Part shown: positions 9,158 through 64,000 of the stretch, one piece after another
How the letters are laid out: each line of letters opens with the position of its first letter
How positions within the stretch are numbered: the stretch's first letter is position 1
Source: an uncultured delta proteobacterium
GTDB taxonomy: Bacteria; Desulfobacterota; Desulfobacteria; Desulfobacterales; Desulfatirhabdiaceae
Reading direction: 5' to 3'
DNA: 64,000 nucleotides
NCBI GenBank assembly: GCA_963850225.1
Contig: CAWKLD010000002.1
Span: 10,107 to 74,106 of the forward strand
Notes under the pieces: generated by a model
What the model saw: the letters and a program-made list of their open reading frames with translations, nothing else
Database searches by the model: none
What the model was told of the DNA's origin: nothing
Program-made: the position numbers and the translations under genes

Positions 9158-9177
9158 ATACGCAATCTGAAGCACAA

Positions 9178-9210: not shown

Positions 9211-9288
9211 CTTTCCATCGGGATGCATCAGTGATCGTTCTCTGATACTACCGCGCAGTTCATACCATCTTCCTGGTTTCTTACAATC

Positions 9289-10937: not shown

Positions 10938-11228
10938 ATGGCGCTATCAAAGGAAAAAAGCAAAAAACGAAGAATCACTTTTTCACTGAGCGCCGATAAA
11001 GCCGCCCGGGTTGCCTTGGCGGGCGACTTTAACAAGTGGAGTGAGACCGCACATCCCATGAAAAAAAACAAAAAAGGTATATGGGAAAAAATCCTGATTC
11101 TGGATATCGGCCGATATGAATATAAGTTTCTGGTGGACGGCCATTGGCAGAGTGATCCCCAAAACGGTCAGGTCTGCAGAAACTGCTTTGGGACCATTAA
11201 CAATGTTCTGATGGTTACCCATCCATGA
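10938..11228 (+). CDS. CBM48/AMPK-beta glycogen-binding (isoamylase early-set) domain protein
   Basis: 96 aa. VALAGDFNKWSE...YEYKFLVDGHWQSDPQN pattern of CBM48. Stop overlaps the next start (ATGA at 11225). Confidence 0.75.
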   Translation: MALSKEKSKKRRITFSLSADKAARVALAGDFNKWSETAHPMKKNKKGIWEKILILDIGRYEYKFLVDGHWQSDPQNGQVCRNCFGTINNVLMVTHP

Positions 11229-32405: not shown

Positions 32406-32795
32406 ACCATTCTCCCTATCTATTTGATTCTAGAATCGATTTTTGTAAGATGTATGGTGCAGTTCCAACATTATACATCCACCACACCCCCTTTCTTGCA
32501 AGAATGTATTCACATCTATTACAAAATTTAATAACCTTTTTACAATATATTATCACAATTTAATTTAATAGTAATCATTATTTTTTAGATTTTACAACTT
32601 TTCTTAACTAACGAGACCACATAATTTTCAGCCGAGCTACTGAACTGCTGTTCTATGAAATGGATGAAATATGCTTTTCTAAAATGCTGAATATTCCAGT
32701 CATTTAAGAACAGACGTTGACAATACGGCGCGCATTCAGTATGTGAGAGTAAAAGCAAAAACACTCAGGCGTCTATCGCAGAAAGGTCTAAACCC

Positions 32796-36814: not shown

Positions 36815-36844
36815 GGGTAATCTCCTTATTGTAAATTTTCGAAA

Positions 36845-41009: not shown

Positions 41010-41100
41010 AAACCTGGAGTTGGAGCCTGAGATCAGGGACTTTTGTTTTTCTGGCTCCTGACTACTGCCCCCTAACCCCTATTATATACGAGGATCCATT

Positions 41101-43138
<2,038 letters not shown>

Positions 43139-51272: not shown

Positions 51273-51908
51273 TCATTCCGGTTCAGAAGGTTTTTCCAAC
51301 GCGATATGTGATGGGGAAGATTTTACGCCGATCAGAATGGTTCCCAAGCCCTGTTCATCCAATCCATCGAAATATTGTTTCTTCAGGTAAACGTCACAAG
51401 GCGTGACCGGATTGGAACAGATAATTGTGTGGCAGGCGGCATTATCCTCGGGAATGCGCCAGTCCGCTATAATAGCCGGCGTCTCAAAACAGCATATTTT
51501 CTGCATGATATCCTGGGGAAAATTTATTTTGTCTTTGTAAAAGATAAAATTTTTATGCAGAAACCAGACATCTTTTCGTCCAGACAACTGAGCGATACGG
51601 TCTTTATCACGAATTTCTTCTCCGACTATTTCTCCGTCTTTTTTTACGATTAAAGAAGGTTGACAGCCCTGGCTAAAATCCATATCGGTCAGGGCTGCAT
51701 AAACAGCATCACAATCAAGGACGGCACGAACACCCGTGTTTACAACCTTTCCCAGCCCCATGAGCGAGTTATTCTCCGCATCCTGCTCGATATCCAGGAT
51801 GACCCGGCGATCCCCATCCGACAAGGGACTGGCTTTCACAATACCCTGAATCTTACCCAGCATCTTCAGCACGGCTTCGTTCAGTTTTGTATGATCCATT
51901 TTATTCAT
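51273..51908 (-). CDS. hypothetical protein with Cys-rich C-terminal half
   Basis: 211 aa ORF on the same strand as the methyltransferase island. Cys pattern KICCFETP...AACHTIICSNPVTPC. No family recognised (a DUF3786-like assignment would need an HMM check). Confidence 0.45.
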   Translation of the reverse strand: MNKMDHTKLNEAVLKMLGKIQGIVKASPLSDGDRRVILDIEQDAENNSLMGLGKVVNTGVRAVLDCDAVYAALTDMDFSQGCQPSLIVKKDGEIVGEEIRDKDRIAQLSGRKDVWFLHKNFIFYKDKINFPQDIMQKICCFETPAIIADWRIPEDNAACHTIICSNPVTPCDVYLKKQYFDGLDEQGLGTILIGVKSSPSHIALEKPSEPE

Positions 51909-52038
51909 AATAATCCGTCATGGTCAATCCGTGCCCCCTTGATACAGGGACGATTTCCGATCGTAAGCTTTTTCCAACTTCTGATTTGTCACGATATTAA
52001 ACCGCACCCGCATGAAAATCAACCGGCATTTCGCCGTA

Positions 52039-52574
52039 TCAGAAGGGCAGTTTGCCCAATGCCAACAGCCAGAAGGACGGAACCCACAAGCCCACTACGG
52101 TCCAGATGATCAAGGATGCCCCCAGGGCCTTGGCGGAAAACTTTCCATAACCATTGAGCCAGACCATGATATAAAGAACCGTATAACCGGCGCAGGCCAG
52201 GGCCAGGAATTTGCTCTGGCTAATAAGCTGTTTGCCCCCCGGCAGTACCGGACCGCCGTTCAATGCCAGGAACATGTAAACGATTGTTATGGGAACCAAG
52301 TCAGGCTGGCATTGGCCATGGTGCGGGTGTCTTCCAGGCCGGAATACAGGGTGAAGCCTACGATGCTGTAAAACAGGCCATAAGCAAAAAGCAGCGCGGC
52401 TATCCAGGGATCCTTAAAAATCGCTGACTGGATAATCGCAGATACGAGCACCAGGGCACCTACCATACAAACGAGCGCACCCGTTCCCTTGGCCTCGCCC
52501 TTCCCCAGCAGCAGAAGTCCCACAGGAACCCACATAAGACTGATTGCCATCAGTGTCGCCTCAACCATTTTCAT
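52039..52574 (-). pseudogene. AmiS/UreI-like small-solute channel, one frame switch
   Basis: ORFs 52287..52574 and 52039..52299 are collinear, about 175 aa, six TM helices. LLFAYGLFYSIVG and the C-terminal GLWVPSFWLLALG resemble AmiS (LLFAFTYLW..., TAWLPGLLLLG). Recalled similarity, moderate. Confidence 0.5.
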
Positions 52575-52823
52575 ACTCCTTTTTTATATTTTAAGAAAGA
52601 TAAATGGAATAAGCTATATTATCAATTATTAGCATCCATTCCCGAAAGGAATACTTCAAAACCAAACAACAGTCTAGCAAATCATTTTTTTCAAAAGCGC
52701 ATACCGTAAGTCCTGAAACACAATGTCATTCATTTGAAAGGATAGATTGTTGCCATTGAAAGCAATATGGCATTCAACACATGGTGAAATTTTGGCGACT
52801 TCAATTAATTTGGAGGTATGAGA

Positions 52824-53465
52824 TCAGTACAAAGATTCCTTTTTGTTTTTCATAATAAACAGCGGAGCCAGAAAACCGGACACCGGCCCAACCCTTACCT
52901 CCCATCTGGTTAACTGCCGAATCGCGTTTTTCTGCGATTCGGCCAATCCGGGGATGATGAGCGTCTGATGAACGATTTTATTTGCGACCTCGTTATCCTG
53001 CATGGATTTCCAAACATCAATGGCTTTGAACATCCGTTCGTGTACGGCGTTATCTACAGAATATCCATGTGTAAATATCGGCAACAGGTAAGCACGTGAG
53101 TCTGTCTGCTCGAGAATAGTTTGCATAATTTGCACGGTCTGGCGAAAATTGCAGGTGATCAGCAATGGATCATCTGCACCTGGGGAACCAATTTCTATCA
53201 ACCTGCAATCAGCCTGCTCCATCATGATATTATAGGGAATAGGATCTTTATCCAATTTTACGATTGAAGCCATAACGTTGGCAAGATCGGCGGACAGTTC
53301 CGGACATTTGTGCGGCGCCAGTTTTTGAGTTAGAACAGCTTCGGCAAATTCAACACAGTTGTCAAAACCGCAGGCTCCACAATCGATTTCAGGCAAATAG
53401 CTACTGAAATCTTCGGCTTCAGGCGGATAAATACTGGCCATTTCCTGTTCAACGACCATAGGCAT
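52824..53465 (-). CDS. minimal corrinoid/Fe-S protein: CFeSP-type [4Fe-4S] domain fused to an AcsC/HgcA-type corrinoid-binding domain
   Basis: 213 aa, intact. CGACGFDNC-X16-C gives the C-X2-C-X4-C-X16-C spacing of the CFeSP large subunit/RnfB FeS domain. The C-terminal half LLITCNFRQTV...LLPIFTHGYSVDNAVHERMF...HQTLIIPGLAES...WEVRVGPVSGFLAPLFI is collinear with the HgcA/AcsC corrinoid domain. Confidence 0.6.
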   Translation of the reverse strand: MPMVVEQEMASIYPPEAEDFSSYLPEIDCGACGFDNCVEFAEAVLTQKLAPHKCPELSADLANVMASIVKLDKDPIPYNIMMEQADCRLIEIGSPGADDPLLITCNFRQTVQIMQTILEQTDSRAYLLPIFTHGYSVDNAVHERMFKAIDVWKSMQDNEVANKIVHQTLIIPGLAESQKNAIRQLTRWEVRVGPVSGFLAPLFIMKNKKESLY

Positions 53466-53623
53466 TACTCCTTGATGCGATTATCTGGTTCATTTGTTGT
53501 GTAAGGTTTTCCAGTCTGTTTATTAAAGAAAGGATTTCCCGGCAGTGAGACCCAAAATGAATCATCTGTTTTCCCGACAGCCTGTTTACAGACAAAATAC
53601 ATATGCCTTCAGGCTTGTCCGGA

Positions 53624-54196
53624 TCATTCAACGGCGATAAATTTTTTGGCGTCAACTCCGCAATAGGGACATTTTTTCGGTGGCTCATTCTCGACAGTGT
53701 GGCCGCACAACGGGCAGACATGATACACAGTCGTCTGAACGTCAGCCGGATCACGCAATGCTTTTTTAAACAGCTTTGCATGAACCATTTCAATAGACAT
53801 GGCGTACTCCAGGCTGTGCCTGGCATCAAGCGCATTTTCTTCGACTGCATCCCGAATCATTGCAGGATACATTATTTTAAACTCTTCTGTTTCACCATCG
53901 ATCGCAGCCTGGAGATTCTCGGCTGTCGATTTAACGCTGCCACCTGACTCAAGCTGCGCTATGGCAAGGGCTGATTTTTCTTCCGAATTCAGATCGACAA
54001 TGATCTGTTCTTCCGCCTTCAAAACACATTGATGGGATTTCGCATGGACTTTTTCAGCTACCGCCGCTGCTCTAAAAAGGCGTGCCACTCCGGAATATCC
54101 TTCTTTTTCGGCCTGTTTTGCAAAAGCACGATACCGAATGCTTGCGTGAGCCTCTCCGTTCAATGCATGATGAAGATTTTGTGCTGTTTTGCTCAT
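53624..54196 (-). CDS. rubrerythrin
   Basis: 190 aa. Diiron four-helix motifs (EAHASIRY, EKVHAKSH, EFKIMYP, EMVHAKLF) and C-terminal rubredoxin CPLCGH...CPYCG. Confidence 0.9.
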   Translation of the reverse strand: MSKTAQNLHHALNGEAHASIRYRAFAKQAEKEGYSGVARLFRAAAVAEKVHAKSHQCVLKAEEQIIVDLNSEEKSALAIAQLESGGSVKSTAENLQAAIDGETEEFKIMYPAMIRDAVEENALDARHSLEYAMSIEMVHAKLFKKALRDPADVQTTVYHVCPLCGHTVENEPPKKCPYCGVDAKKFIAVE

Positions 54197-54254
54197 TGAA
54201 TCGCTCCTGTAACAAGATTGGGGTTGGTTGGAATCGTCTGATATTTTCCCCTTC

Positions 54255-56037
54255 TCACGGGGAGGTGATCAGCGCGATCAAATCGAACACTTTTTCCTTG
54301 CAGGCTCTTTCACATCTGCGACAGGCCACGCCATCGCAAAGGGCCAGATTAATGGATATTCTATAATTCGCATTTTCCGTTTCCATTTCCAGCGCATTCT
54401 CGGGGCATTCCGCAACGCAGTCTTCACAGCCGATACAGCCGTCAAATCGGCAGGATCGCATGCGTCCGAGATCGGAGACGATTTTCAAGCCCATCTGGCC
54501 GAAATCCGGAATATCTCTTTCAACGGTTTTAATGACTTCCGGACGCCTGGTCACTTCATGGATTTCGGGCAGGCCATATTTTTTCAGAAATTTCTGGTAT
54601 TGCACAAAGGGCATGCCTTCGGTCCAGAAAGACAATTCCAGAATATAGACCTTTTCAAACGTCTTGGAAGCTGCAAACATACAATGATGTTGCCTGAGGT
54701 CATCGGCAACCTTCTTCATATGCCAGAGCGCATCATCCGATTTTACCACATCCCGGGCCATGGCCAGAGATGTGTTGCCAACCTGATAAATTTTTTGAAC
54801 ACCGGAAGGAATCATACCGATTTCCTGGGCTTTTAATAGCATCCACATAGGTACCGGATGCCCCGGAGCAGTAAGCGACTTTGATATCGTTCAAGTCGAT
54901 GCCTGCCTCATGGCATAGCGTGATATGACCGGCCCTGACGGCACCGATCGCCTTGCCGGCCTCCAGCAGGTCTTTTTCGGTAAATTTGATTCCATTTGGT
55001 AGATGAATTTCCGTATCCAGTGTGTTGATGCGGGGAATTTTGATCAACCTGGCTTTCAGACATTGGCTGATCAGTCCGACCACGCCGGTTCCGGTGATTC
55101 CGACGGCCGCGTAATCACCGGTCTCAAGACATCTTCCGGTATTCGGATCGACCGTATCTCCCGAACGGGCATGCATGTCCTGACCGAGAACAAAGGTTTT
55201 CAGTCGTCCTTTTAGGGGTTTGTCGCTGACTGGTCGTGCCGGTTATGCAGCCGTTGGAAGAATTGTGATCGCTCTTATCGCTCATCCTCGAAATAAATTT
55301 TGATTCGGATTCAATCGGCCGGATGTGCGCGAAGAACATCCGGCCAGCGTGACGGTTTCGGGTTCAAATTCGACATCACTGATCGCACCTGGAAGCGCCA
55401 GAAGTCCATCTTCGATATGCTGGCCTTCCAGTGCAGGTCCGGCGGCAGTGGAGCCGGTATAAACCTTTCCGTTTACCAGCAGCGCAATCTCGTTATTGGT
55501 ACCATAGTCCGTTACAACAACAATCTCTTTCTGATCCAGCATGCCGGTTTGAATCATCATGGCCAACGCATCGGCCCCGATTTCATGCCGAACCGCAGGT
55601 GGAATCAGAACATCCACTTCGGGTAACAAATCAAGGCCTGAAATTTCATGCGCTTTTACGATCATGGCATCGCGCTTGGGCGGCACCACGCCCAATGCAT
55701 CCAGTTTTCTTTTGCCGGCATAGGCCAGATCCCTGAATTCAATTTTCTGGAAAAGAGATAGTTGTATGGGATTTCCACATACCGCCACGCGAACGATCTG
55801 ATTTTTTTCTAACCGCAAATTGTCAATCACCTTGTTGACGGCATCCAGTACAATCTGATGGGTTTTCTCCAGACCGATCTCAAGGGCAAAGTGCAGATGG
55901 TCTATTACATTGGCACCGGGAAGAGGATGGCGTGTGGTAACAGCCGTTGACAAAATCATGCCGTTCTGGTCCAGATCCAGAGCCTGTCCGCGAAATCCGC
56001 TGGTGCCTAAATCCAGTGCAATACCGATTTTGCTCAA
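54255..56037 (-). pseudogene. RamA/RACo-type ATP-dependent reductive activase of corrinoid proteins (ASKHA fold plus C-terminal 2x[4Fe-4S] ferredoxin), about three frame switches
   Basis: Pieces 55282..56037, 55124..55339, 54733..55176 and 54255..54848. IALDLGTSGFRGQALD and VVVTDYGTNNEIAL ASKHA motifs. C-terminus CIGCEDCVAECP and CDGVACRRCERAC. The first and third pieces share a frame. The last switch is at T4 54831-54834. Confidence 0.75.
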
Positions 56038-56080
56038 TTGATGTTTTGCTCCTTTATTAATAACCTGTCGGCCGTATCGA

Positions 56081-56305
56081 TCAAGCTTGTGGATCCTTCA
56101 GCAGGCGCCGGCATTTCATACAAATCCAGTTCTCTTCGTCATCGGTCGATATCTGGGGAAAATGACCGTATAAATCATAATGGTCATTTCGAATCCGAGT
56201 CCAGTATTGTTTCACTTCCGTACAGGACAACCGCCTTCCCAAATCGTTTTCCGCGTCCGAATGCCAGCGGCCACATTTTGTACAACTCAGCATGGTCTCG
56301 ATCAA
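56081..56305 (-). CDS. small zinc-ribbon-like protein
   Basis: 70-74 aa (TTG at 56305 or ATG at 56293). CTKCG...(X48)...CMKC pairs of Cys. 43 bp upstream of the activase gene. Weak RBS. Confidence 0.4.
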   Translation of the reverse strand: MIETMLSCTKCGRWHSDAENDLGRRLSCTEVKQYWTRIRNDHYDLYGHFPQISTDDEENWICMKCRRLLKDPQA

Positions 56306-56423
56306 TTCCCGAGAAAAGAACGGTGAACAAATGTCCGATATTCAGAACTTGATGTGGATATTTTTTCGAAATGGCGAATGCAATTCAGTCCGGATTATTG
56401 CATGCTTACGTGATTTTGATCCC

Positions 56424-56454
56424 AAAAAACGCATTCCGGGTTTGACCCGGAATG
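56424..56454 (-). terminator. rho-independent terminator downstream of mtaB
   Basis: CATTCCGGG / CCCGGAATG 9-bp stem (56432-56440 / 56446-56454) with a 5-nt loop, followed on the minus strand by CGTTTTTTGGG (A6 at 56424-56429 on plus). Confidence 0.7.
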
Positions 56455-56464
56455 GCGGTATTTT

Positions 56465-56500
56465 CTGCCGGTTCCCAATCTGGAGCTTGGGAACCGGCAG
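56465..56500. repeat. perfect 14-bp inverted repeat (CTGCCGGTTCCCAA-N8-TTGGGAACCGGCAG)
   Basis: Read directly: arms 56465-56478 and 56487-56500. It lies between the mtaB stop and the terminator. A third 7-bp hairpin sits at 56534-56553. Confidence 0.8.
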
Positions 56501-56553
56501 ATGCGCGGATTATGGCGCAGTTCAACACTTTCGGTCCGTTCAGTCGAACGGAC

Positions 56554-57929
56554 TTAGAGCCCATATGAGCCAGGATTGAATCCCTTGACATTCTTGTATT
56601 TTTTCAGACAATCGTCAATGAATGTACCTTCGTCATCCGGCAGGGCTTCCAGATCTTTCATGGCCTTATTCAAAGCCTCAGTCTCGAGCTTGGTGAGTTT
56701 CATCTTTTTGTCGCCCAGAATGATTTTGCCGGCCTCGATCGCGCCGGCTCTGGCACTGGCATAATTGCTCTTTCCCCGGTTCTGGACAATGGCGTTGCCA
56801 ACTTTCCATGCATTGTCCGGTGCCAGAATCAGACTGTGGGAATCCCGATACATATCGGAGTTGACCAGAATTTCTTTCATCTGCTGCTGATAGCCCAGTT
56901 CGATGGCGGAGTTGAACATGGCGCAGTCGTACCCGAGGATCTCGGCGAAGACCGATGTCGTGGTGGCGCCGAACATGTCATGGTATTCCACGGCCTCGTT
57001 GCTCCACACGTCGGTTACGGCGGCAATGAGGTTGCCCGCCAGGTCGGAATGCGCGCAAGCGCTGGTTTTACCCTCGCAGGAGATGGGAACACCGGCCATG
57101 GCTTTGATGATGGGATCTTCGTATGCACAGTCTTTGGTCGGACCAGTGGCGCCGCATTCGTAGGCCACCAGGGTTCTGGATGCGGCAATGGCACGGGACA
57201 AAGCAGCCATGACTGAGGCACGTCCTTGGATGTCATACCGCCGGCCATGAACATGGCGGTATTGGCCTCGGAGCAGTTAGGTGTCGCCGCCAGGGATGCA
57301 GTTGTTCTTTTTGGCGATAGCGACGATCTGATCCCACATCCACTCCATATCGATGGCGCCCAGTACACCGATACCGAACAGAATCCCCGCGATATCGTTA
57401 CGGATGATGGCATGGTCAAAAACCTCTTTGCCACCCATGGACTCGATGGAAACAATATCTGCATATTTGGCACATTCTTTGAAGGATTCAATGACCTCCG
57501 GGTGTAGTCACTTTGACGCATGTCGACCATATCGGGTTTGCGCAGATCGGCGATGGTAGCGCGATATGCAGCCTTCAATCCATATTTGGACAGGTAATCA
57601 TCCATCTGTTTGGCTGTCTGTGCGGCAATTTCTCCACCCCATTTCGGGTTGTGGGTCATCTGGAAGATATGTTCATTTTCAATCTGCAAAGTTGGATGTC
57701 CGACAATTACCATTCTTTCCAGGGCATCGCCGTTGGCCTTTTCATATTCCCTCAGCAATGTTTTCATGGTCTTTTCACTGCCGGGCCGGGGATGCGGCAC
57801 CACCTCGGGATGTACCAATCCGCCGCCGATTACAATTCCTCTCTTGGTGGTCACGGGATACTTGGCCGTGCCGAACATCATTTCCGCGCCGTCTTTGTAA
57901 GCCATCTTGGTGAGTTTTTTACGTGCCAT
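56554..57929 (-). pseudogene. mtaB: methanol--corrinoid protein Co-methyltransferase (MtaB family), three frame switches
   Basis: Pieces 57929 to about 57500 (frame A), about 57500-57285 (frame B), about 57285-57222 (A), and 57210..56554 (B). Collinear with Methanosarcina MtaB as I recall it: MARKKLTKMAYKDG...TAKYPV, SIESMGGKE, GGDT-CSEANTAMF, GKTSACAHSD, ...KGFNPGSYGL. Zn-ligand positions (Glu, Cys, Cys) are retained. Confidence 0.85.
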
Positions 57930-58092
57930 GTTTGATTCTCCCTTTTTGTTTTTTTGTTATTGAATGATTTCATTTCGGTTGTAACTCTTGGCTTTGATCT
58001 CTGCTGGCTGTTCTATGTCGGTTCTTCCCCCTTTCACGATTTCATGACCCCCAAGATCACGCCATGAACTTAACAGTTTGTAATTGATAGGT

Positions 58093-58108
58093 TGCAATCG
58101 AAGTGCCA
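58093..58108 (-). promoter_or_regulatory. sigma-54 (-24/-12) promoter of mtaB
   Basis: The minus strand reads TGGCACTTCGATTGCA, an exact TGGCAC-N5-TTGCA match, 164 nt upstream of the mtaB ATG and just downstream of the activator gene stop. Confidence 0.75.
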
Positions 58109-58175
58109 CCAGAACCAGTCAATTTGAATACTTTATAACATCACTGATATAGTACAATATAATTTCCAGGACAAA

Positions 58176-59663
58176 TCATGCTGTGTTCGGATGGGATTCC
58201 CAAATGTAACCATCGGTGACAGATCTGCTTGTTAAATGTAACAACCGGTTACATACAGATGATGACAATCCGTATTCCGAAAGCCTCAGATAGAGCAGTC
58301 GCCGCGTAATACCCAGCATTTTTGCCGCTGCCAGTTTATTGCCTTTGGTCAATTCAAGCGTTTTAACCAGCAACTCCTTTTCAACATCCCGAAGCCGAAC
58401 CCCCCCGTCGGGCAGTTGATTAATCATGCCCGTGGACTGAATTTCCATGCCAGTTTTCCGGCTCACTTCTTCCGGAAGGTCCTGAATGGTGATTTCTCCA
58501 TTTGAACAGGTCACCAGAAGCCGTTCTACAATATTGGCCAACTCCCGCACATTGCCCGGATAGCCGTAGCACATCAAAAGGTCTTTGACTTCTTCGGTCA
58601 GGACCGGTACTGCCAGATCCATTTCTTTTGCATAAACTTCCAGAAAATGATTCAGCAGCAGGGGAATGTCTTCCTTCCTGTCTCTCAACGGCGGGATAGT
58701 GATGGGTACGACATTGAGACGATAGAACAGATCATCTCGGAAATATCCCGATTTTACATCTTTTTTCAAATCCTGGCTGGTAGCTGCAATAATCCGCACA
58801 TCGGTTTTGATGGTGGCATTGCCTCCAACCCGCTGAAATTCTTTTTCCTGGAGTATTCTGAGCAGCTTGACCTGAAGCGCCTTGTCCAGTTCGCCGATTT
58901 CATCCAGAAACAAGGTGCCACCACTGGCAATTTCAAATTTGCCTTTACGCTGCTGCATCGCCGTGGTGAAGGCGCCGCGCTCGTGGCCGAACAGTTCGCT
59001 TTCCATCAGACTGGCTGGGATGGCGCCGCAGTTGATCGCAACAAAAGGAAAGTTTCTGCGAGTGCTGGTCTGACAGATCGTTCGGGCAATCAACTCTTTG
59101 CCCGTACCGCTTTCACCCTGAATCAAAACAGTGGCCGATGTAGGTTTCAATTTTTCGATCAGTCGATAAATGTCGTTAATGCCCCGGCTTTTACCGATAA
59201 TCACCCCAAAACGCTGTCTGGGTTCATCGGGTTTGACTGCCGTTTCTGATGACGATCTTTTCGTCCCCATTTTTTGGGCGATTCCCATCAGAATCGTGTT
59301 GAGACTGTGTTTGAGGCCCGGGCCTGAGTATTCATAAAACCCGCCGCCCTGGTATAAAAAAGGACCCATCGGACCGGTAATCAGAATCGCGGCATCGGGC
59401 GCAATTCGCCTGGCCTGTTGAAAAAAACCGCCGCCACCCATTTCCGAGGATTTAATGTCGATGATAATGATGGATACCGTTTTTGAATGACTGTTCAGTA
59501 CGGCCAGTCCCTGATGCTCATCCGCCACCCACAGCGGATCGAAGTCCTTTGAAGAAATAAACCGCGACAGAGACTGAAATGCCCGATACCGGTCATCGAC
59601 AATCAGAACCAGCGGCTTATCGCCTTTTGTCGGTCTGAACGTTTTTTCTTCTGAACTTATCAT
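58176..59663 (-). CDS. sigma-54-dependent response regulator (NtrC-type: receiver, AAA+, Fis HTH)
   Basis: 495 aa. Receiver LVLIVDD...[11 protein letters not shown]+ [11 protein letters not shown] and the GAFTTA (GAFTGA variant) loop. C-terminal [19 protein letters not shown]. Start overlaps the cobW-like stop (ATGA at 59660-59663). Confidence 0.85.
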
Positions 59664-60788
59664 TTGTTAAGCCTGCACTCCTGCTCGGACCCTTGTCGCA
59701 CTGACAAGGAATACGGATCATTGATTACGGCTTTCACTGCCGCCTGCCCGTTTGAGCGGCACTGCTGAAATGCCTTCTCGATCATCTCCCGGTTCAGGCT
59801 TTTGCCGATAACGGACACCTTGCTTTGGTTAAATGGCCGGATCGGCTGAATGGACACATCGCCGGAAGCCAGCTCCAGCACCTTCCAGGCAGTCTCTGTT
59901 CGGAATATTCCCTTGGCGCGAACGATTTCACCGTATCCGGACTGTGCGTCTGTCATCCGATGAAAAAGGCTTTCCAGGGAAAGCAGATCAAACCCGCTGT
60001 CGGCAAATACAAGGCCGAAGGATTCATAGCCCAAGGCGTCCGCAGTCTTTGTCAAAATGGGGCTGCGATCCGGCATCTTCCGGATGATCGAGTATTGTAA
60101 CCACCGGTCCTTTGCCGTTATTGGCTTTCGGCTGAACAGACGCTTTCCGGTGGCTGTCCGAATGTGTCGTTTTGTCACGATCAAGTTTGAATCCGGAACC
60201 AACAGACAGGGCGGCGTGATACTCGCTCCAGTTGATGGCTCCGAATTCGGTCATGAATACCGTCAGTTCGGGATTGATCGCGGAGATGGCGGACTGGATC
60301 ACCATGGCCTTTCGCTGATCTACCCGGTCACATTTGTTCAACATGATGATATGAGCGTTTTCCACCTGGGATTCGACAAAATGCCGGTTGGCCCGATACA
60401 GCCCCATGAAACCGGTGGCATCGGCAATCAGTATTTTGTGAATTCGGCTGATTTCCCGCTCGAACAACTGCGCTTCGAGAATCCACTGAATTTGCCCGAT
60501 TGTGGCGACCCCAGTGGGTTCTATGATGATTCTGTCCGGCTTTATGGTGCGGCTGATTTCCAGAATCTGAGCCCGAAAATCAGCCTGAAGCGTACAGCAG
60601 ATGCATCCGCTGGGCATTTCGACCACATTGCCGCCTTGTGATGACAGAAGCTCGCCATCGATACCTACATCACCAAATTCATTCACCAACACCACGATTT
60701 TTTCATCAGAATCCCATTCACGAAGGATTCGCGTGATAAACGTAGTTTTGCCGGAGCCTAAAAATCCAAAAATCACATCAACAATCAT
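59660..60788 (-). pseudogene. CobW/HypB/UreG-family (G3E) GTPase, one frame switch
   Basis: ORFs 60024..60851 and 59660..60202 are collinear. Likely start is ATG 60788 (MIVDVIFGFLGSGKTTF). CXCC motif GCICCT, NKCD, His-containing linker, and CobW_C-like tail (GYESFGLVF...VRAKGIF). Switch somewhere in 60050-60200. Confidence 0.8.
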
Positions 60789-61082
60789 CTTCGATACACT
60801 TTCCTGGTACACGGTGAAAGTTGTTAACGGATAGAAATAAACCTGAACCATGAAAATGCGATGTTCATCCGCCCTCTGAAGTCAACTTCTTATTCCGGTT
60901 CATATTCAAACTGACAGCTTTGTCAGCTTCGCAGCGATGAATTACGACGTACTGAAAAAGTGCAGTAATCATCGCTGCTCGTTTGGTTTCGCGGTCTCGC
61001 CTGAATGCTTGCCGGAACGTCATTTTTGAAACAAAATGAAATCACAACAAAAAAGAATTAAACGATTCGCCATCAGATCCTG

Positions 61083-61829
61083 TTAACCGTTCCACTTGCT
61101 TCGCAAAGATTCCCATTTTTCGCCGGCCAACGCATCTTCTGCCATGCCCGGCGCCTGGCTTGCTTCCTTGCCATATACGCCAAGATCGTAACTTGTCACA
61201 TATTCCTCGCAAACCGCACCGCCGCCGCAGATAAAGGGAATTTGAATGCCGGCGGCTTTGAGCTGATGCGCGATTTTGGGAAATGCCGTCATGGTGGTGG
61301 TCATCAGAGCGGTCCCGGTAACCATCACGGGACGATGCTCTTTACATGCCGCTACCACCTTGTCAACCGGCACATCGGCACCCAGATCAATTACCTCGAA
61401 TCCATTGGCGTTAAGCAGGGCATTAACAATCACCTGACCGATGTCATGAATATCGCCTTCGGCCGTATGGGTAACGACTTTGCCTTTTCTATCCATGGAT
61501 TTGCCCATGGCCTTCTCGCACTTGGCAATGCCGATATTCATCGCATCCGAAGAGAGAATGACCTGGGGCAGGAAATATACGCCTTCTTCCCACAGTCGGC
61601 TCACCTCGTTCATGCCGGCAATAAGTGCATCGTTAATGATGTCGAGCGGTGTTTTTGTTTTCAGGGCCTTATCCACGGCAGGGGCAATTCCATCTTCATC
61701 CCCGTCCACCACGAATTTTGCGATACTTTGCAGAATGGGATCTTTGGAAACCTGTTTGGCTTGTCCAACTTTTTCGAGGTCAAGATCGTAACGTTTAAAA
61801 ATGTTTGAGAAATCATTCAAAATTTTCAT
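61083..61829 (-). CDS. mtaC: methyltransferase cognate corrinoid protein (MtaC-type, B12-binding)
   Basis: In-frame ATG 61829 within ORF 61083..61889, preceded by GGAAAGGAG. N-terminal helical cap domain, then B12 motif GDIHDIGQ (DxHxxG), ...VMVTGTALMTTT..., GGGAV. Confidence 0.85.
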   Translation of the reverse strand: MKILNDFSNIFKRYDLDLEKVGQAKQVSKDPILQSIAKFVVDGDEDGIAPAVDKALKTKTPLDIINDALIAGMNEVSRLWEEGVYFLPQVILSSDAMNIGIAKCEKAMGKSMDRKGKVVTHTAEGDIHDIGQVIVNALLNANGFEVIDLGADVPVDKVVAACKEHRPVMVTGTALMTTTMTAFPKIAHQLKAAGIQIPFICGGGAVCEEYVTSYDLGVYGKEASQAPGMAEDALAGEKWESLRSKWNG

Positions 61830-61911
61830 AATAAAACTCCTTTCCTCATTTAAAAGTTTATTAAAATGGCTCCGGCAGGAACCACGCACATCCCTTGTTT
61901 GGAAATAACGG

Positions 61912-62913
61912 CTAATGCGCCTTGGCTACCTCCAGCATGGCCAGAAGGTTTTCCATTGGCGTACCCGGTGCAACGGCGCACCCCGGTGCCAGCATCTGGA
62001 TTCCGTCTGCGATGGATTCCTCGCTTCCGGCTCTGACCGTTGCGGCATCTTTCATAAAAAGTGTGGTGGCGGTATCCACACCGCCCATTAAAATGATATC
62101 CGGCCCGCATTTTTCCCGGGCCAATTGAGCGCTGGCTTTCGGCTCCAGACTCAGTATCTCTGCACCGGTTTGCCCCATCCAGGCAACAATGTTATCCACA
62201 TTGCCGCAGATATGCAGAATTTTAGGCACCATGATTCCTTCGAACTGGGCGGTTTGATAGTCCATCTCATAGTCCCTGTAAGTTTTTGGTGCAATCAGGT
62301 CCGGCGAAGCAGTCATGTCCTCACAGGAAATCATATCGGCTCCGGCCTCGACCAGGGCCTGGGCAAGCATATTGCCGGCTCTTTGTCCGATCTCCAGAAA
62401 CGGCCGCATTTTCTCCGGCGTCTTGAAGCTGGCCTTGAGCAGGGGAACCGTGTCGACCAGGGCGCCGGCGATGGTGAAGGGGCCGATGATCCCGCCGATA
62501 ATGAGCACTTCGTCTTTCAGCTCCTTTTTTAAAATGCGGACCGCTTTCAGCAATTCCGGAATCCTGCCGCGCGAGAGAAAATCCTTTGGAAATATCGGCG
62601 TATCATTCAGGGTATAGGGAGATGGGTGTGCAATTCCGGGAATTCCCTCTGTACCGCCGGATTTGACCCCGCATCCAAGGGCCTCGGCTTCAAATGTCTG
62701 GCAGAAAGGGACTCTTACCGCATCAAAACCGACGACGGTATAGGCGGCCAGGGCCTGTTTGGCCATGTCTTCACCTTTTTCGTGACCGCTGGGCCAGAAG
62801 GCCTGAACCTTTTCCATTTGCTCGTAGGTGACCGTGGAATTGGCACAAAAACAAGGCATACGGTCGGGTTTCTGGTGGTTTAACACTGCCATCACGCGTT
62901 CTTTGGCATTCAT
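61912..62913 (-). CDS. mtaA: methylcobamide methyltransferase of the uroporphyrinogen decarboxylase (URO-D/MtaA) family
   Basis: 333 aa. MNAKERVMAVLNHQKPDRMP start. Zn motif HICGN (H-x-C) plus the downstream Cys in LAPGCAV. RBS AGGAGG. First gene behind the riboswitch. The methyl acceptor (THF versus other) is not deducible. Confidence 0.8.
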   Translation of the reverse strand: MNAKERVMAVLNHQKPDRMPCFCANSTVTYEQMEKVQAFWPSGHEKGEDMAKQALAAYTVVGFDAVRVPFCQTFEAEALGCGVKSGGTEGIPGIAHPSPYTLNDTPIFPKDFLSRGRIPELLKAVRILKKELKDEVLIIGGIIGPFTIAGALVDTVPLLKASFKTPEKMRPFLEIGQRAGNMLAQALVEAGADMISCEDMTASPDLIAPKTYRDYEMDYQTAQFEGIMVPKILHICGNVDNIVAWMGQTGAEILSLEPKASAQLAREKCGPDIILMGGVDTATTLFMKDAATVRAGSEESIADGIQMLAPGCAVAPGTPMENLLAMLEVAKAH

Positions 62914-63100
62914 ACATTTACCTCCTGATTAAATATGAAATTATGAAACAACGAAATCATTACAAAATATAGATTATTTCGGACTGGAAAACCGAATCGA
63001 ATGGAAACTGTCAGATAAGCAGAAAACGAATTGACGGTTGCAATTCACGGGGGTTCCAGGGCAAATGCCGCATCGATGGTTGAATCCAAGGATTTCAATC

Positions 63101-63130
63101 AAAAATGCGCTCTTTACCCTCGAAAGAGAG
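63101..63130 (-). terminator. possible attenuator hairpin of the riboswitch expression platform
   Basis: CTCTTT / AAAGAG 6-bp stem (63110-63115 / 63123-63128) followed on the minus strand by CGCATTTTT. Weak, AT-rich stem. Confidence 0.3.
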
Positions 63131-63142
63131 GCATCACGACAT

Positions 63143-63336
63143 GAGCAGGTATCCTGACTTGCGGCCCGAGCGGACTCTTTTCGCCTTTAGCCAGTAAACT
63201 ATATCGAAGGCCTGTGACAGAGTCCGTTCTTCGAGGATTCGATCTCAAACAGAAAACGCCTCGAAGCATTCCTTAAGGAACGCGCGTCGCTTACAGTTGC
63301 GGGGCAGTGACGGATTTACACCATCTTCCCTGCTAT
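63143..63336 (-). promoter_or_regulatory. cobalamin (B12) riboswitch in the mtaA-mtaC leader
   Basis: The minus strand reads AGCAGGGAAGAUGGUGUAAAUCCGUCACUGCCCCGCAACUGUAAGCG ... ACUGGCUAAAGGCG ... GCAAGUCAGGAUACCUGCU. These are the conserved GGGAA/GGUG.AA.UCC/CCCGC.ACUGUAA core, the B12 box AGUCAGGAUACCUGC, and P1 closing AGCAGG/CCUGCU. Confidence 0.8.
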
Positions 63337-63349
63337 AAAAACTAATTTG

Positions 63350-63391
63350 AAATCATTGATTATAAATCAATATAAATATAAATCATTGATT
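63350..63391. repeat. two copies of palindromic 12-mer AAATCATTGATT, 30 bp apart, just downstream of the sigma-54 promoter
   Basis: Copies at 63350-63361 and 63380-63391. The AATCA-T-TGATT core is self-complementary. A degenerate AAATCAAT lies in between. Confidence 0.5.
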
Positions 63392-63406
63392 TACAGATTG
63401 TAGTAA

Positions 63407-63422
63407 TGCAATAAAAATGCCA
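63407..63422 (-). promoter_or_regulatory. sigma-54 (-24/-12) promoter of the mtaA-mtaC-cobW-regulator operon
   Basis: The minus strand reads TGGCATTTTTATTGCA (TGGCAT-N5-TTGCA). It lies about 60 nt upstream of the riboswitch aptamer and about 490 nt upstream of the mtaA ATG. Confidence 0.7.
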
Positions 63423-63602
63423 CCCTATCCGGTTTTGTTTAATAAATATATTAATAACATTAATTGCGGATAGTTACAAAATTATGTTCGTATCGATTCG
63501 ATTTAACGCGTGATGTCATGGTAAGCATGATAATGGGTAAGGCTTTTGAGTCATATCGACTATACTCAATATTATTGGAATGTTGATAGTGCGACACGAA
63601 TG

Positions 63603-64000
63603 TCACGGTATGACAGCGTGCTGCGCAGCGGTTTGTGAGCGGAGGAGGGAAGTGTCCAACTCAAATTCTTTAATTTTTCGCCACAAGGTTCTGGTATTTA
63701 TTCCCGTAAAATGTGCCGTCTGGGTGACATTGCCTTCGTATCGTTTCAGCGACTCGAATATATAGGCTTTCTCGAAGCGCTTTTCGACCATGCTTCGGGC
63801 CACTTTGAACGGAATATCGATATTGACCGAATATGGGGATTCTCCCACTGTCGCGCCGGTCATCGCGCCTGAAAAATGGAGGGTATCGATGGTGTCGCCT
63901 TCTGTGACGACAAAAGCCCGTTCGAGAACATTTTCCAGTTCACGAACGTTTCCCGGCCAGACATGCTGCATGAGCCGAGCCATTGCCTGAGTGGATAACG
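63603..64000 (-). CDS. sigma-54-dependent transcriptional activator, C-terminal part only (runs off the window)
   Basis: ORF 63603..63983 continues to the window end in the same frame. WPGNVRELENVLERA (AAA+ sensor II) and C-terminal Fis-type HTH QTAHFTGINTRTLWRKIKEF. Confidence 0.8.
   Translation of the reverse strand, partial: LSTQAMARLMQHVWPGNVRELENVLERAFVVTEGDTIDTLHFSGAMTGATVGESPYSVNIDIPFKVARSMVEKRFEKAYIFESLKRYEGNVTQTAHFTGINTRTLWRKIKEFELDTSLLRSQTAAQHAVIP

What the first reader, a model, noticed from the sequence alone, without database searches (positions are those of the whole stretch)
51273..63602. Methanol-type corrinoid methyltransferase island next to Wood-Ljungdahl genes in a deltaproteobacterium-like context
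A single-strand block encodes, in transcription order:
- mtaA-like URO-D methyltransferase and MtaC corrinoid protein (DxHxxG);
- a CobW GTPase and an NtrC-type activator;
- an MtaB-like methyltransferase with the recalled Zn-ligand positions intact;
- a zinc-ribbon protein and a RamA-type activase with a C-terminal 2x[4Fe-4S] domain;
- rubrerythrin, a mini corrinoid/Fe-S protein and an AmiS/UreI-like channel.

cobD lies just beyond the block.

MtaB-type methanol activation is established for methanogens, acetogens and a Gram-positive sulfate reducer. Combined with fhs and cooS in the same window, this suggests methanol-derived methyl groups feed an oxidative or reductive acetyl-CoA pathway. 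The auxiliary set here (mini-CFeSP, channel, dual sigma-54 control, riboswitch) is not a layout I know as described.
Basis: partly seen in the sequence, partly recalled or inferred. Interest (0 to 1): 0.8.

Follow-up and report, generated by a model that had tools for sequence, protein, structure and literature searches.

The report
Methanol methyltransferase gene cluster, Desulfobacteraceae
This is a real but fairly ordinary gene cluster for taking the methyl group off methanol with a vitamin-B12 protein; the same cluster sits in dozens of public genomes of sulfate-reducer relatives, and its broken reading frames are most likely assembly errors.

Summary

MtaB rebuilds to exactly 458 aa. It is 96% identical to an intact homolog and 48% to crystallised M. 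barkeri MtaB, with all three zinc ligands kept.

The nine frame breaks are most likely assembly errors:
- Similar breaks split hemB, recD2 and other genes elsewhere in the window.
- dN/dS of the broken genes equals that of intact orthologs.
- Read-level contigs from two samples carry ramA uninterrupted across one break.

The layout is not unique. The same core occurs in about 45 species-level genomes of Desulfobacterota, including cultured Desulfospira joergensenii, and Dehalococcoidia. The mta/COG0523/Ram linkage was described in 2009.

Less ordinary are the conserved sigma-54 plus B12-riboswitch control, the recurrent channel and the orphan protein with no fold match. Methanol use through this system has not been tested in any Gram-negative sulfate reducer.

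The parts
63603..64000 (-). C-terminal part of a sigma-54-dependent response regulator, cut by the window end. In relatives it is 472-473 aa and is preceded by a 918-aa GAF-PAS histidine kinase.
   Evidence: AAA_lid_14 plus HTH_8. Intact orthologs and the kinase are in L031 and L081. A homolog lies upstream of mtaA in most loci of the close Desulfobacterota clade, those with 84-96% MtaB identity.
63408..63422 (-). Sigma-54-type promoter TGGCAT-N5-TTGC, about 500 nt upstream of mtaA and ahead of the riboswitch.
   Evidence: The same element is in L081. A strict match lies 500-760 nt upstream of mtaA in 14 of the 30 close-clade loci tested and nearer (168, 282 nt) in two more.
63127..63361 (-). 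Cobalamin riboswitch aptamer in the mtaA leader.
   Evidence: RF00174, 57.9 bits against a gathering score of 31.5, full model 1-189. Found in the same position in 10 of 13 Desulfobacterota loci scanned.
63101..63128 (-). Conserved hairpin (stem CUCUUU/AAAGAG, loop with CGAGGG) followed by U5. Candidate regulatory helix or terminator of the riboswitch.
   Evidence: The stem changes on both sides in several of the 10 loci compared while pairing is kept, judged by eye. The U-run is present only in the window, L081 and L031. ON/OFF logic is not resolved.
61912..62913 (-). mtaA-like methylcobamide methyltransferase (URO-D fold), intact, 333 aa.
   Evidence: PF01208 216.7 bits. PRK06252 302.1 bits (cutoff 244) and TIGR01463 267.6 bits (cutoff 235.4). 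97% identical to L031.
61083..61829 (-). mtaC corrinoid protein, 248 aa from the ATG, with DxHxxG (GDIHDIG).
   Evidence: B12-binding_2 plus B12-binding. MtaC_Meth 282.6 bits, below its methanogen-tuned cutoff of 420.
59660..60788 (-). COG0523/CobW-type metallochaperone GTPase, broken by a +1 insertion at 60045.
   Evidence: cobW and CobW_C domains fall on two ORF pieces. The intact orthologs are 356-359 aa. The indel was located against L031 and L081.
58176..59663 (-). NtrC-type sigma-54 activator with a weak receiver domain, intact, 495 aa.
   Evidence: Sigma54_activat 235.4 bits, HTH_8, Response_reg 23.3 bits below cutoff. It sits directly upstream of mtaB throughout the close Desulfobacterota clade.
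58094..58108 (-). Perfect sigma-54 promoter TGGCAC-N5-TTGC, about 165 nt upstream of mtaB.
   Evidence: A strict match lies within 400 nt upstream of mtaB in 29 of 39 close-clade loci and in none of the clades lacking the activator there. The expected chance rate is about 8e-4 per locus (my calculation).
56554..57929 (-). mtaB methanol:corrinoid methyltransferase. Three single-base indels (-1 at 57498, +1 at 57279, -1 at 57213). It rebuilds to 458 aa.
   Evidence: PF12176. More than 1000 homologs, hundreds at 85-94% identity, nearly all listed at 458 aa. 466 bits to M. barkeri MtaB 2I2X, with Zn ligands E164/C220/C269 kept. Indels located.
56432..56454 (-). Intrinsic terminator-like hairpin after mtaB (10-bp stem, 6 G-C pairs, T-run).
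56081..56293 (-). Small zinc-ribbon protein (70 aa from the ATG; CxxC...CxxC), a separate gene with its own stop, 43 nt before ramA.
   Evidence: Sequence read directly. Called as a separate 86-aa gene in a JGI contig and read through as one 724-aa ORF in L031. No Pfam or NCBIfam hit.
54255..56037 (-). ramA-type ATP-dependent reductive activase of corrinoid proteins with a C-terminal 2x[4Fe-4S] domain. Four +1 insertions (55293, 55277, 55233, 54837).
   Evidence: Raco_middle, RACo_C_ter and Fer4 on three ORF pieces. The L031 ortholog scores 742.5 bits on TIGR04270 (cutoff 500). Indels located. The 54837 break is absent from read-level contigs of two samples.
53624..54196 (-). Rubrerythrin, intact, 190 aa.
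   Evidence: PF02915 plus RUBY_RBDX. It recurs in a subset of loci.
52824..53465 (-). Small protein with an N-terminal [4Fe-4S] domain (Cx2Cx4Cx16C) and the C-terminal corrinoid-binding domain of the CFeSP large subunit / HgcA. It has no TIM barrel.
   Evidence: PF04060 plus PF03599 positions 269-377 of 387. ACDS gamma positions 325-448 of 450, E 1.1e-31, and HgcA corrinoid domain. Present in L001, L014, L031, L081, Desulfomonilaceae and Dehalococcoidia loci.
52039..52568 (-). AmiS/UreI-family small-solute channel, 176 aa when rebuilt, broken by a -1 at 52299 in a T run.
   Evidence: The L031 ortholog scores 29.1 bits on PF02293 (cutoff 25), covering 3-164 of 166. Of the 120 best of 306 homologs, nearly all are 165-178 aa (most exactly 176) and most carry PF02293; NCBI names the D. 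joergensenii copy an AmiS/UreI family transporter. Present in 29 of 67 bacterial mta loci.
51273..51908 (-).
   Evidence: 314 homologs, none carrying a functional name. 47 invariant columns. No Pfam, NCBIfam or PDB sequence hit. AlphaFold2 pLDDT 84.6, pTM 0.80. No Foldseek match in the PDB, best E 0.07. Adjacent to ramA in 44 loci of Desulfobacterota and Dehalococcoidia and absent from Bacillota, Actinomycetota and archaeal loci.
49968..51047 (+). CobD-like threonine-phosphate decarboxylase, convergent neighbour just outside the block.
   Evidence: TIGR01140 285.2 bits against a cutoff of 290.55. Same position in L031 and L081.

Best explanation
The block is a functional methanol:corrinoid methyltransferase system of a Desulfobacteraceae-like bacterium. 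Its reading frames are damaged by single-base errors in the deposited assembly.

Inferred mechanism, by homology with the characterised Methanosarcina and acetogen systems:
1. MtaB uses its zinc site to activate methanol and methylates the Co(I) corrinoid on MtaC.
2. MtaA passes the methyl group to a C1 carrier. In a bacterium without coenzyme M this is most likely tetrahydrofolate.
3. Methyl-THF is then oxidised through the methyl branch of the Wood-Ljungdahl pathway, or condensed to acetyl-CoA.
4. RamA re-reduces inactive Co(II)-MtaC using ATP and its 2x[4Fe-4S] domain.
5. The COG0523 GTPase probably serves metal insertion, and rubrerythrin probably protects against oxidants.

Expression appears to run in at least two units:
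- A sigma-54 promoter followed by a cobalamin riboswitch drives mtaA-mtaC-cobW and the activator gene.
- A second sigma-54 promoter, served by the NtrC-type activator encoded just upstream, drives mtaB, which ends at its own terminator.

Shown here: family memberships, conserved catalytic residues, conserved gene order and conserved regulatory elements. Inferred: methanol as substrate, THF as acceptor, the metabolic direction, and the roles of the accessory proteins.
For: Family and residues:
- MtaB matches PF12176 over its full length. It scores 466 bits and is 48% identical to crystallised M. barkeri MtaB, with E164/C220/C269 conserved in all 37 sequences compared.
- MtaC has DxHxxG, MtaA passes two NCBIfam cutoffs, and the RamA ortholog passes TIGR04270.

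Conservation:
- The core order (regulator, mtaA, mtaC, cobW, activator, mtaB, ramA, orphan) is kept in about 40 Desulfobacterota species representatives, with all genes intact in the nearest relatives L081 and L031.
- A sigma-54 promoter lies upstream of mtaB in 29 of 39 close-clade loci. The riboswitch is present in 10 of 13 loci scanned.

Frame breaks as artefacts:
- Domains split between frames also occur in hemB, an AhbD-like radical SAM gene, a hybrid kinase receiver, a multicopper oxidase and recD2 elsewhere in the window.
- dN/dS of the window against L081 is 0.029 for mtaB, 0.09 for ramA and 0.19 for cobW. That is no higher than for the intact pair L031 against L081 (0.037, 0.105, 0.205).
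- Read-level contigs of ERR15459714 and ERR12037369 carry the identical rubrerythrin, preceded by uninterrupted ramA ORFs of at least 906 nt and 651 nt. The window allows at most 636 nt there.

Physiology from the literature:
- D. joergensenii, which has the cluster (L020), makes sulfide from methanol without growth (PMC8048578).
- MtaABC is induced by methanol with cobalt in a Gram-positive sulfate reducer (PMC5770442).
Against: - No activity, transcript or protein data exist for this clade.
- The L031 MtaB ortholog scores 659.9 bits, below the NCBIfam MtaB equivalog cutoff of 720. MtaC likewise falls below its equivalog cutoffs.
- Sim et al. report that no Gram-negative methanol-oxidising sulfate reducer they examined carries mtaB, and D. 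joergensenii does not grow on methanol.
- Breaks are denser in the island (9 in about 12 kb) than my rough count elsewhere (about 15 candidates in 51 kb). They fall only in four of the ten genes.
- The amiS break appears to be shared by a read-level contig.
- The window shows no dsr, acs or metF among the ORFs I annotated, so the downstream route is not visible here.
- A cobalamin riboswitch of the usual OFF type would switch a B12-dependent system off when B12 is plentiful, which fits poorly.
Confidence: 0.7

Rival explanations
1. The frame breaks are real. In this strain the methanol system is a very recently inactivated set of pseudogenes (mtaB, ramA, cobW, amiS), so the organism no longer uses methanol by this route.
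For: - All nine unbalanced indels in the island fall in four functionally linked genes, while mtaA, mtaC, the activator, rubrerythrin, the FeS protein and the orphan stay open.
- Most indels are not in long homopolymers.
- The deposited 105-kb contig carries the same 218-aa MtaB fragment.
- A read-level contig seems to share the amiS break.
- Natural loss of mtaB is known in Desulfofundulus kuznetsovii TPOSR (PMC10907483).
Against: - Equivalent breaks hit hemB, recD2, an AhbD-like gene and others outside the island. hemB is needed for sirohaem and corrinoid synthesis.
- There is no excess of non-synonymous change in the broken genes.
- The 54837 break in ramA is absent from read-level contigs of two samples.
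- That read-level contig also differs from the window by one further base in amiS, as expected for noisy data.
Confidence: 0.12
2. The MtaB-family enzyme of this clade does not serve methanol catabolism. It may act on another small methyl donor, or run towards methanol or methyl-corrinoid formation, for example as a methyl sink or for detoxification.
For: - It is only 48% identical to any biochemically characterised MtaB, and the L031 ortholog scores below the NCBIfam equivalog cutoff.
- The cultured carrier D. joergensenii does not grow on methanol.
- The recurrent AmiS/UreI-type channel belongs to a family known for urea and short amides, not methanol (family knowledge).
- mtaB transcription has been linked to arsenic demethylation in paddy soil, including a Desulfobacterota MAG.
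Against: - All three zinc ligands and the full-length fold match are kept.
- To my knowledge every characterised member of PF12176 is methanol-specific.
- The cognate MtaC, MtaA, RamA and COG0523 set is the same as in methanol-using methanogens (PMC2770081).
- D. joergensenii does turn over methanol to sulfide.
Confidence: 0.12
3. In the cluster variants that carry the small [4Fe-4S]/corrinoid-domain protein, the methyl group is handed to this mini-CFeSP and on to acetyl-CoA synthase, bypassing tetrahydrofolate.
For: - The protein combines the Cx2Cx4Cx16C cluster motif with the corrinoid-binding domain of AcsC/CdhE and HgcA.
- It recurs in mta clusters of three lineages.
- cooS is in the window.
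Against: - It is absent from most clusters, so it is not core.
- It lacks the TIM-barrel domain and a small-subunit partner of true CFeSP.
- No acs gene is nearby.
- MtaA, the usual exit for the methyl group, is present and intact.
Confidence: 0.05

Closest known systems
MtaABC methanol:coenzyme M methyltransferase system of Methanosarcina, with RamM/RamA activase and a COG0523 protein
   Same: - MtaB (PF12176, same Zn ligands), MtaC (DxHxxG corrinoid protein) and MtaA (URO-D fold).
- A RamA-type activase with a C-terminal 2x[4Fe-4S] domain.
- A clustered COG0523 GTPase (PMC2770081).
   Different: - Only 48% MtaB identity.
- The host is a bacterium without coenzyme M, so the acceptor is presumably tetrahydrofolate.
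- Gene order differs: mtaB is separated from mtaC by cobW and an activator gene.
- Control is by sigma-54 and a riboswitch.
- Extra genes: zinc ribbon, orphan protein, channel, rubrerythrin, mini-CFeSP.
Methanol methyltransferase operon of the Gram-positive sulfate reducer Desulfofundulus (Desulfotomaculum) kuznetsovii and of acetogens
   Same: - A bacterial MtaB/MtaC/MtaA system that feeds methyl-THF.
- Dependent on cobalt and B12.
- Linked to B12-related genes (PMC5770442; PMC10907483).
   Different: - MtaB of Bacillota loci is only 57-59% identical and forms a separate branch.
- Those loci lack the orphan protein, and only one of the Bacillota loci (L052) shows an AmiS-like hit.
- In the operon as described, B12 biosynthesis genes are embedded, unlike here.
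The same cluster in public Desulfobacterota genomes, e.g. Desulfospira joergensenii DSM 10085 (L020) and MAG contigs L081 and L031
   Same: - Identical core order.
- 85-96% MtaB identity.
- Same sigma-54 promoter, and in most loci the same riboswitch.
   Different: - Their genes are intact.
- Accessory genes vary: L081 lacks the channel, and D. joergensenii has no detectable riboswitch or rubrerythrin in the locus.

Membership tests
MtaB (methanol:corrinoid methyltransferase, PF12176) | Full-length match to the family profile | tested here: met
   The two ORF pieces cover profile positions 2-142 and 241-460 of 460, at 194.9 and 313.2 bits. The rebuilt 458-aa protein aligns 1-457 to 2I2X at 466 bits.
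MtaB (methanol:corrinoid methyltransferase, PF12176) | Zinc ligands Glu164, Cys220 and Cys269 (M. barkeri numbering) | tested here: met
   E/C/C are present in the window sequence and in all 36 other sequences aligned. Cys220 lies in the segment between two frame breaks.
MtaB (methanol:corrinoid methyltransferase, PF12176) | NCBIfam equivalog score (NF040651, cutoff 720) | tested here: not met
   The intact L031 ortholog scores 659.9 bits. The model is built on methanogen sequences.
MtaB (methanol:corrinoid methyltransferase, PF12176) | Methanol:cob(I)alamin methyl transfer activity | not testable with these tools
   Needs recombinant protein.
MtaC-type corrinoid protein | B12-binding_2 cap plus Rossmann B12-binding domain with DxHxxG | tested here: met
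   PF02607 79.9 bits and PF02310 79 bits. GDIHDIG was read in the translation. It scores below the MtaC equivalog cutoffs (282.6 against 420).
MtaA/CmuA methylcobamide methyltransferase (URO-D fold) | Profile match above the curated cutoff | tested here: met
   TIGR01463 267.6 bits (cutoff 235.4) and PRK06252 302.1 bits (cutoff 244). The methanogen MtaA equivalog is not met, 295.1 against 400. Acceptor specificity (CoM or THF) was not tested.
RamA / RACo reductive activases | Raco_middle plus ASKHA ATPase domain plus C-terminal 2x[4Fe-4S]; TIGR04270 cutoff | tested here: met
   All domains are found on the window pieces. The L031 ortholog scores 742.5 bits (cutoff 500). CxxCxxCxxxCP and CxxxxCxxCxxxC motifs were read in the translation.
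COG0523 / CobW G3E GTPases | cobW nucleotide-binding domain with P-loop and CxCC motif, plus CobW_C | tested here: met
   PF02492 136.6 bits and PF07683 31.1 bits. GSGKT and CICC were read in the translation. It is not an equivalog of CobW proper (99 bits against 332.1).
Cobalamin riboswitch (RF00174) | Covariance-model score above the gathering threshold over the whole aptamer | tested here: met
   57.9 bits against 31.5, model positions 1-189. Ligand response and ON/OFF logic were not tested.
AmiS/UreI channels (PF02293) | Profile match above the gathering score over the full six-helix length | tested here: met
   The window fragment alone scores 18.9 bits, below the cutoff of 25. The intact L031 ortholog scores 29.1 bits over 3-164 of 166. 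Most of the 120 homologs listed carry PF02293. The solute is unknown.
Corrinoid iron-sulfur protein large subunit (AcsC/CdhE) | [4Fe-4S] domain, TIM-barrel domain and C-terminal corrinoid domain | tested here: not met
   Only the FeS domain and profile positions 269-377 of 387 (C-terminal domain) are present, and the protein is 213 aa. It resembles CFeSP in parts but is not a member.
Sigma-54 promoter with bacterial enhancer-binding protein | GG-N10-GC element (TGGCAC-N5-TTGC) upstream of the target gene, with an adjacent AAA+ activator | tested here: met
   A perfect site is at 58094-58108 and is conserved in 29 of 39 loci. The activator has Sigma54_activat at 235.4 bits. Window-wide, the one-mismatch pattern is no more frequent than chance (6 found, 5.6 expected), so the support comes from position and conservation.

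The most novel reading that the evidence does not exclude
The cluster marks a widespread, so far unrecognised guild of Gram-negative sulfate reducers and relatives (Desulfobacterales, Syntrophobacterales, Desulfomonilales, Desulfatiglandales, Desulfobulbales, and also Dehalococcoidia). These organisms would consume methanol through MtaB rather than an alcohol dehydrogenase.

This version of the system would contain parts not yet described:
- An AmiS/UreI-type channel acting as a methanol facilitator.
- An orphan-fold protein working with RamA or MtaC.
- A cobalamin riboswitch that, together with sigma-54 activators, switches a B12-dependent pathway on only when both cofactor and substrate are present.
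Probability: 0.3. Interest if true: 0.6.

Novelty: new member of a known kind. Interest (0 to 1): 0.38.

Why it matters
Methanol is usually treated as a substrate that methanogens do not have to share with sulfate reducers. The only sulfate reducer with an experimentally supported MtaB route is Gram-positive.

A highly conserved MtaB cluster in dozens of Desulfobacterota species (84-96% protein identity across orders, under strong purifying selection) suggests that Gram-negative sulfate reducers in lakes, peat and sediments may compete for methanol. That would affect methane budgets.

The finding itself adds no new enzyme chemistry, and the genes are already named in public annotation. Its practical value lies in three things:
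- A testable model organism that already has the cluster, D. joergensenii.
- Three conserved parts of unknown role: the orphan protein, the channel, and the riboswitch in front of a B12-dependent operon.
- A caution that this contig carries many single-base indel errors.

Tried and rejected
- **ORF 56406-56591 as the zinc-ribbon gene.** Rejected. It overlaps the mtaB 3' end and matches only an out-of-frame stretch in L031. The real gene is 56081-56293.
- **A frame change at about 56090 as a tenth lesion.** Rejected. It is the natural boundary between the zinc-ribbon gene and ramA, with a stop, an AAAGGAG ribosome-binding site and a TTG start.
- **Island-specific decay.** Tested with dN/dS and by looking for split domains elsewhere. 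Not supported.
- **Exact-sequence look-ups to find other assemblies of the same strain.** These failed for MtaA, the activator, MtaC, the MtaB fragment, the FeS protein and the zinc ribbon. Only the orphan protein and rubrerythrin gave read-level contigs, without DNA.
- **Function of the orphan protein.** No Pfam, NCBIfam, PDB sequence or PDB fold match.
- **Riboswitch ON/OFF logic.** Folding of the leader was uninformative (z = -0.61). Comparison of 11 leaders showed a conserved hairpin but no consistent terminator.
- **Literature searches.** I searched for a described Desulfobacterota mta cluster, an AmiS-methanol link and a riboswitch-mtaC link. I found only the D. joergensenii mtaB mention and the 2009 COG0523 paper.
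- **Foreign origin.** The island's G+C content (46-50%) does not differ from the rest of the window.

Full report
**1. What is in the sequence**

The stretch from 51273 to the window end is one co-directional block on the minus strand. Pfam, NCBIfam and Rfam identify its parts in transcription order:

| Element | Coordinates | Key evidence |
|---|---|---|
| Sigma-54 response regulator, C-terminus only | 63603-64000 | AAA_lid_14, HTH_8 |
| Cobalamin riboswitch | 63127-63361 | 57.9 bits |
| mtaA-like URO-D methyltransferase, 333 aa, intact | 61912-62913 | PF01208 216.7 bits |
| mtaC corrinoid protein, GDIHDIG | 61083-61829 | B12-binding_2 plus B12-binding |
| COG0523/CobW GTPase | 59660-60788 | cobW, CobW_C |
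| NtrC-type activator, 495 aa, intact | 58176-59663 | Sigma54_activat 235.4 bits |
| mtaB | 56554-57929 | PF12176 |
| Zinc-ribbon gene | 56081-56293 | CxxC...CxxC |
| ramA with C-terminal 2x[4Fe-4S] | 54255-56037 | Raco_middle, RACo_C_ter, Fer4 |
| Rubrerythrin | 53624-54196 | PF02915 |
| [4Fe-4S] plus CFeSP/HgcA-type corrinoid domain protein, 213 aa | 52824-53465 | PF04060, PF03599 |
| AmiS/UreI-like channel | 52039-52568 | PF02293 |

A CobD-like gene lies convergent at 49968-51047. fhs (4950-6713) and cooS (7184-9157) are real but about 45 kb away.

**2. The MtaB homolog**

Three single-base indels move the gene between two frames. Joining the pieces gives a protein of exactly 458 aa. That is the length of nearly all of the 120 best of more than 1000 homologs, and hundreds of these are 85-94% identical.

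- It aligns end to end with the crystallised M. barkeri MtaB (2I2X, 466 bits).
- It is 48% identical to that protein in my alignment.
- Glu164, Cys220 and Cys269 are conserved, as in all 36 other sequences compared.
- In a neighbour-joining tree it sits inside a tight Desulfobacterota clade with Dehalococcoidia beside it. This clade is sister to Bacillota and Actinomycetota sequences, and more distant from Methanomassiliicoccales and Methanosarcina.
- The intact L031 ortholog scores 659.9 bits against the NCBIfam MtaB equivalog cutoff of 720. It is therefore a clear family member but not an equivalog by that methanogen-based model.

**3. The frame switches**

I aligned the window with its two nearest relatives. 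L081 is a 654-kb ENA contig with 87% DNA identity. L031 is a Desulfobacteraceae MAG. This locates nine unbalanced single-base indels:

| Gene | Indels |
|---|---|
| mtaB | -1 at 57498, +1 at 57279, -1 at 57213 |
| cobW | +1 at 60045 |
| ramA | +1 at 55293, 55277, 55233 and 54837 |
| amiS | -1 at 52299 |

All these genes are intact in L081 and L031. The deposited 105-kb source contig carries the same 218-aa MtaB fragment, so the breaks are in the public record.

Four lines of evidence point to sequence error rather than decay:

- **Breaks outside the island.** Pfam domains are split between frames in hemB (profile positions 2-259 and 258-316), an AhbD-like radical SAM gene, the receiver domain of a hybrid kinase and a multicopper oxidase. 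recD2 has a +1 at 48089. A codon-usage scan suggests about 15 further same-strand frame changes in the other 51 kb.
- **No relaxed selection.** dN/dS of the window against L081 is 0.029 (mtaB), 0.09 (ramA) and 0.19 (cobW). That is no higher than for the intact pair L031 against L081.
- **Intact frame in read-level contigs.** Contigs of two runs carry the identical rubrerythrin, preceded by uninterrupted ramA reading frames of at least 906 nt and 651 nt. The window permits at most 636 nt.
- **Assemblies disagree.** The read-level contig for the amiS region differs from the window by yet another base, as expected from noisy reads.

Two points weigh the other way. The breaks are denser in the island than elsewhere, and the amiS break seems to be shared by a read-level contig. 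I therefore keep real, very recent pseudogenisation as a rival at about 0.12.

**4. How widespread the cluster is**

A scan of one genome per species found 80 loci. I compared them with the window's proteins by tblastn.

- **Close Desulfobacterota clade (84-96% MtaB identity).** The order (regulator, mtaA, mtaC, cobW, sometimes amiS, activator, mtaB, ramA, orphan) holds in about 40 Desulfobacterota representatives. These span Desulfobacteraceae, Syntrophobacteraceae, Desulfatiglandales, Desulfobaccales and Desulforhopalus, and include the cultured Desulfospira joergensenii DSM 10085.
- **Desulfomonilaceae and Dehalococcoidia.** These carry a rearranged version without the activator in front of mtaB.
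- **Bacillota, Actinomycetota and Methanomassiliicoccales.** These share mtaB, mtaC, a CobW homolog and ramA.
- **Relative conservation.** MtaB is far more conserved across these orders than its neighbours. The activator is 55-66% identical and the CobW C-terminus 39-56%.
- **Accessory genes.** The orphan protein is present in 44 loci, all Desulfobacterota or Dehalococcoidia. The channel is in 29 of 67 bacterial loci. Rubrerythrin and the small FeS/corrinoid protein occur in subsets.
- **Nearest relative.** L081 has the window's order except that it lacks the channel.

**5. Regulation**

- A perfect sigma-54 promoter (TGGCAC-N5-TTGC) lies at 58094-58108, between the activator gene and mtaB.
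- A strict version of this motif occurs within 400 nt upstream of mtaB in 29 of 39 close-clade loci. It occurs in no locus of the clades lacking the activator there.
- A strong terminator-like hairpin follows mtaB at 56432-56454.
- A second sigma-54 site (TGGCAT-N5-TTGC, 63408-63422) precedes the riboswitch. Similar sites lie 500-760 nt upstream of mtaA in 14 of 30 close-clade loci and nearer in two more.
- The riboswitch is found in 10 of 13 Desulfobacterota loci scanned.
- Directly after the aptamer is a hairpin. In several of the ten loci compared its stem changes on both sides while pairing is kept, judged by eye. Only the window and its two nearest relatives have a U-run behind it.
- Whether the switch turns expression on or off could not be decided.

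**6. The orphan protein**

The 51273-51908 product has 314 homologs, none carrying a functional name. It has 47 invariant columns. It has no Pfam, NCBIfam or PDB sequence match. It gives a confident AlphaFold2 model (pLDDT 84.6, pTM 0.80) with no structural neighbour in the PDB (best E 0.07, TM at most 0.3). Its function remains unknown.

**7. Comparison with what is known**

- The chemistry and core proteins are those of the MtaABC system of methanogens and acetogens.
- COG0523 clustering with mtaA/B/C and ramM was described in 2009 (PMC2770081).
- Among sulfate reducers, only the Gram-positive D. kuznetsovii has experimental support for the route (PMC5770442).
- Sim et al. noted mtaB in Gram-negative D. 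joergensenii. They stated that no Gram-negative methanol oxidiser they examined carries it (PMC7808614).
- D. joergensenii forms sulfide from methanol without growth (PMC8048578).
- Bacterial mtaB in MAGs is reported routinely.
- I found no paper in the held library that describes this conserved Desulfobacterota cluster, its channel, its orphan protein or its riboswitch. That library is incomplete.

**8. Verdict**

This is a genuine, correctly recognised methanol-type methyltransferase island and a new member of a known kind. It is not a new layout. The frame breaks are most likely assembly errors. Interest is moderate, about 0.38. The interest lies in the untested ecological role of MtaB in Gram-negative sulfate reducers and in three conserved accessory features of unknown function.

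Noticed in passing
window 41062-42076, 41896-43135, 24574-26491, 27326-28959, 47376-49923: Single-base frame breaks split hemB (ALAD), an AhbD-like radical SAM/SPASM gene, the receiver domain of a hybrid histidine kinase, a multicopper oxidase and recD2. The contig has indel errors throughout, in clusters, with long clean stretches between them.
   Followed up: yes
window 51273-51908; L031 15480-16070; L081 15196-15771: An orphan protein family of about 195 aa is always next to ramA in Desulfobacterota and Dehalococcoidia mta clusters. It gives a confident predicted structure with no fold match in the PDB.
   Followed up: yes
window 63101-63361; same position in L081, L031, L014, L005, L007, L008, L011, L019, L021, L024: A cobalamin riboswitch controls an operon for a B12-dependent enzyme system. 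This is the reverse of the usual targets, which are B12 synthesis, uptake or B12-independent isozymes. A conserved hairpin follows the aptamer. ON/OFF logic is unresolved.
   Followed up: partly
window 52039-52568; 29 of 67 bacterial mta loci: An AmiS/UreI-family channel recurs inside mta clusters at two different positions (after cobW, or after the FeS protein) and is missing from the nearest relative L081. It may be a facilitator for methanol or another small solute.
   Followed up: partly
window 59234-59258: A +1/-1 indel pair 24 nt apart lies in the linker of the NtrC-type activator, relative to both L031 and L081. The frame is restored. It could be two more errors or real divergence in a variable linker.
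   Followed up: no
L081 17446-17670 (-): The nearest relative has a second, strong cobalamin riboswitch (109.8 bits) upstream of its cobD-like gene. The window has none at the corresponding place, where cobD directly follows recD2.
   Followed up: no
window 39831-43135: Genes of the sirohaem-dependent (alternative) haem pathway sit together: AhbC (750.5 bits, cutoff 650), hemB and an AhbD-like radical SAM gene. This fits a sulfate-reducer-type organism.
   Followed up: partly
window 4950-10623: fhs and cooS are divergently arranged, with a PAS-domain sigma-54 activator (9289-10623) just downstream of cooS on the opposite strand. Sigma-54 control may be common for C1 genes in this genome.
   Followed up: no
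window 10824-15516: A glycogen debranching / alpha-amylase region (CBM48, Alpha-amylase, GDE_N, GDE_C) appears to be broken into several frames.
   Followed up: partly
window 3118-4728 (-), 30552-32429 (-), 34649-36844 (-): Three further genes: a B12-binding radical SAM protein, a 626-aa multihaem cytochrome c, and an ADP-forming acetyl-CoA synthetase-like protein (ATP-grasp_5, CoA_binding, Succ_CoA_lig).
   Followed up: no
L031 11413-13587 against window 56081-56293 and 54255-56037: The zinc-ribbon gene and ramA are separate genes in the window and in a JGI contig, but read as one 724-aa ORF in L031. This is either a natural fusion or an error in that MAG.
   Followed up: partly
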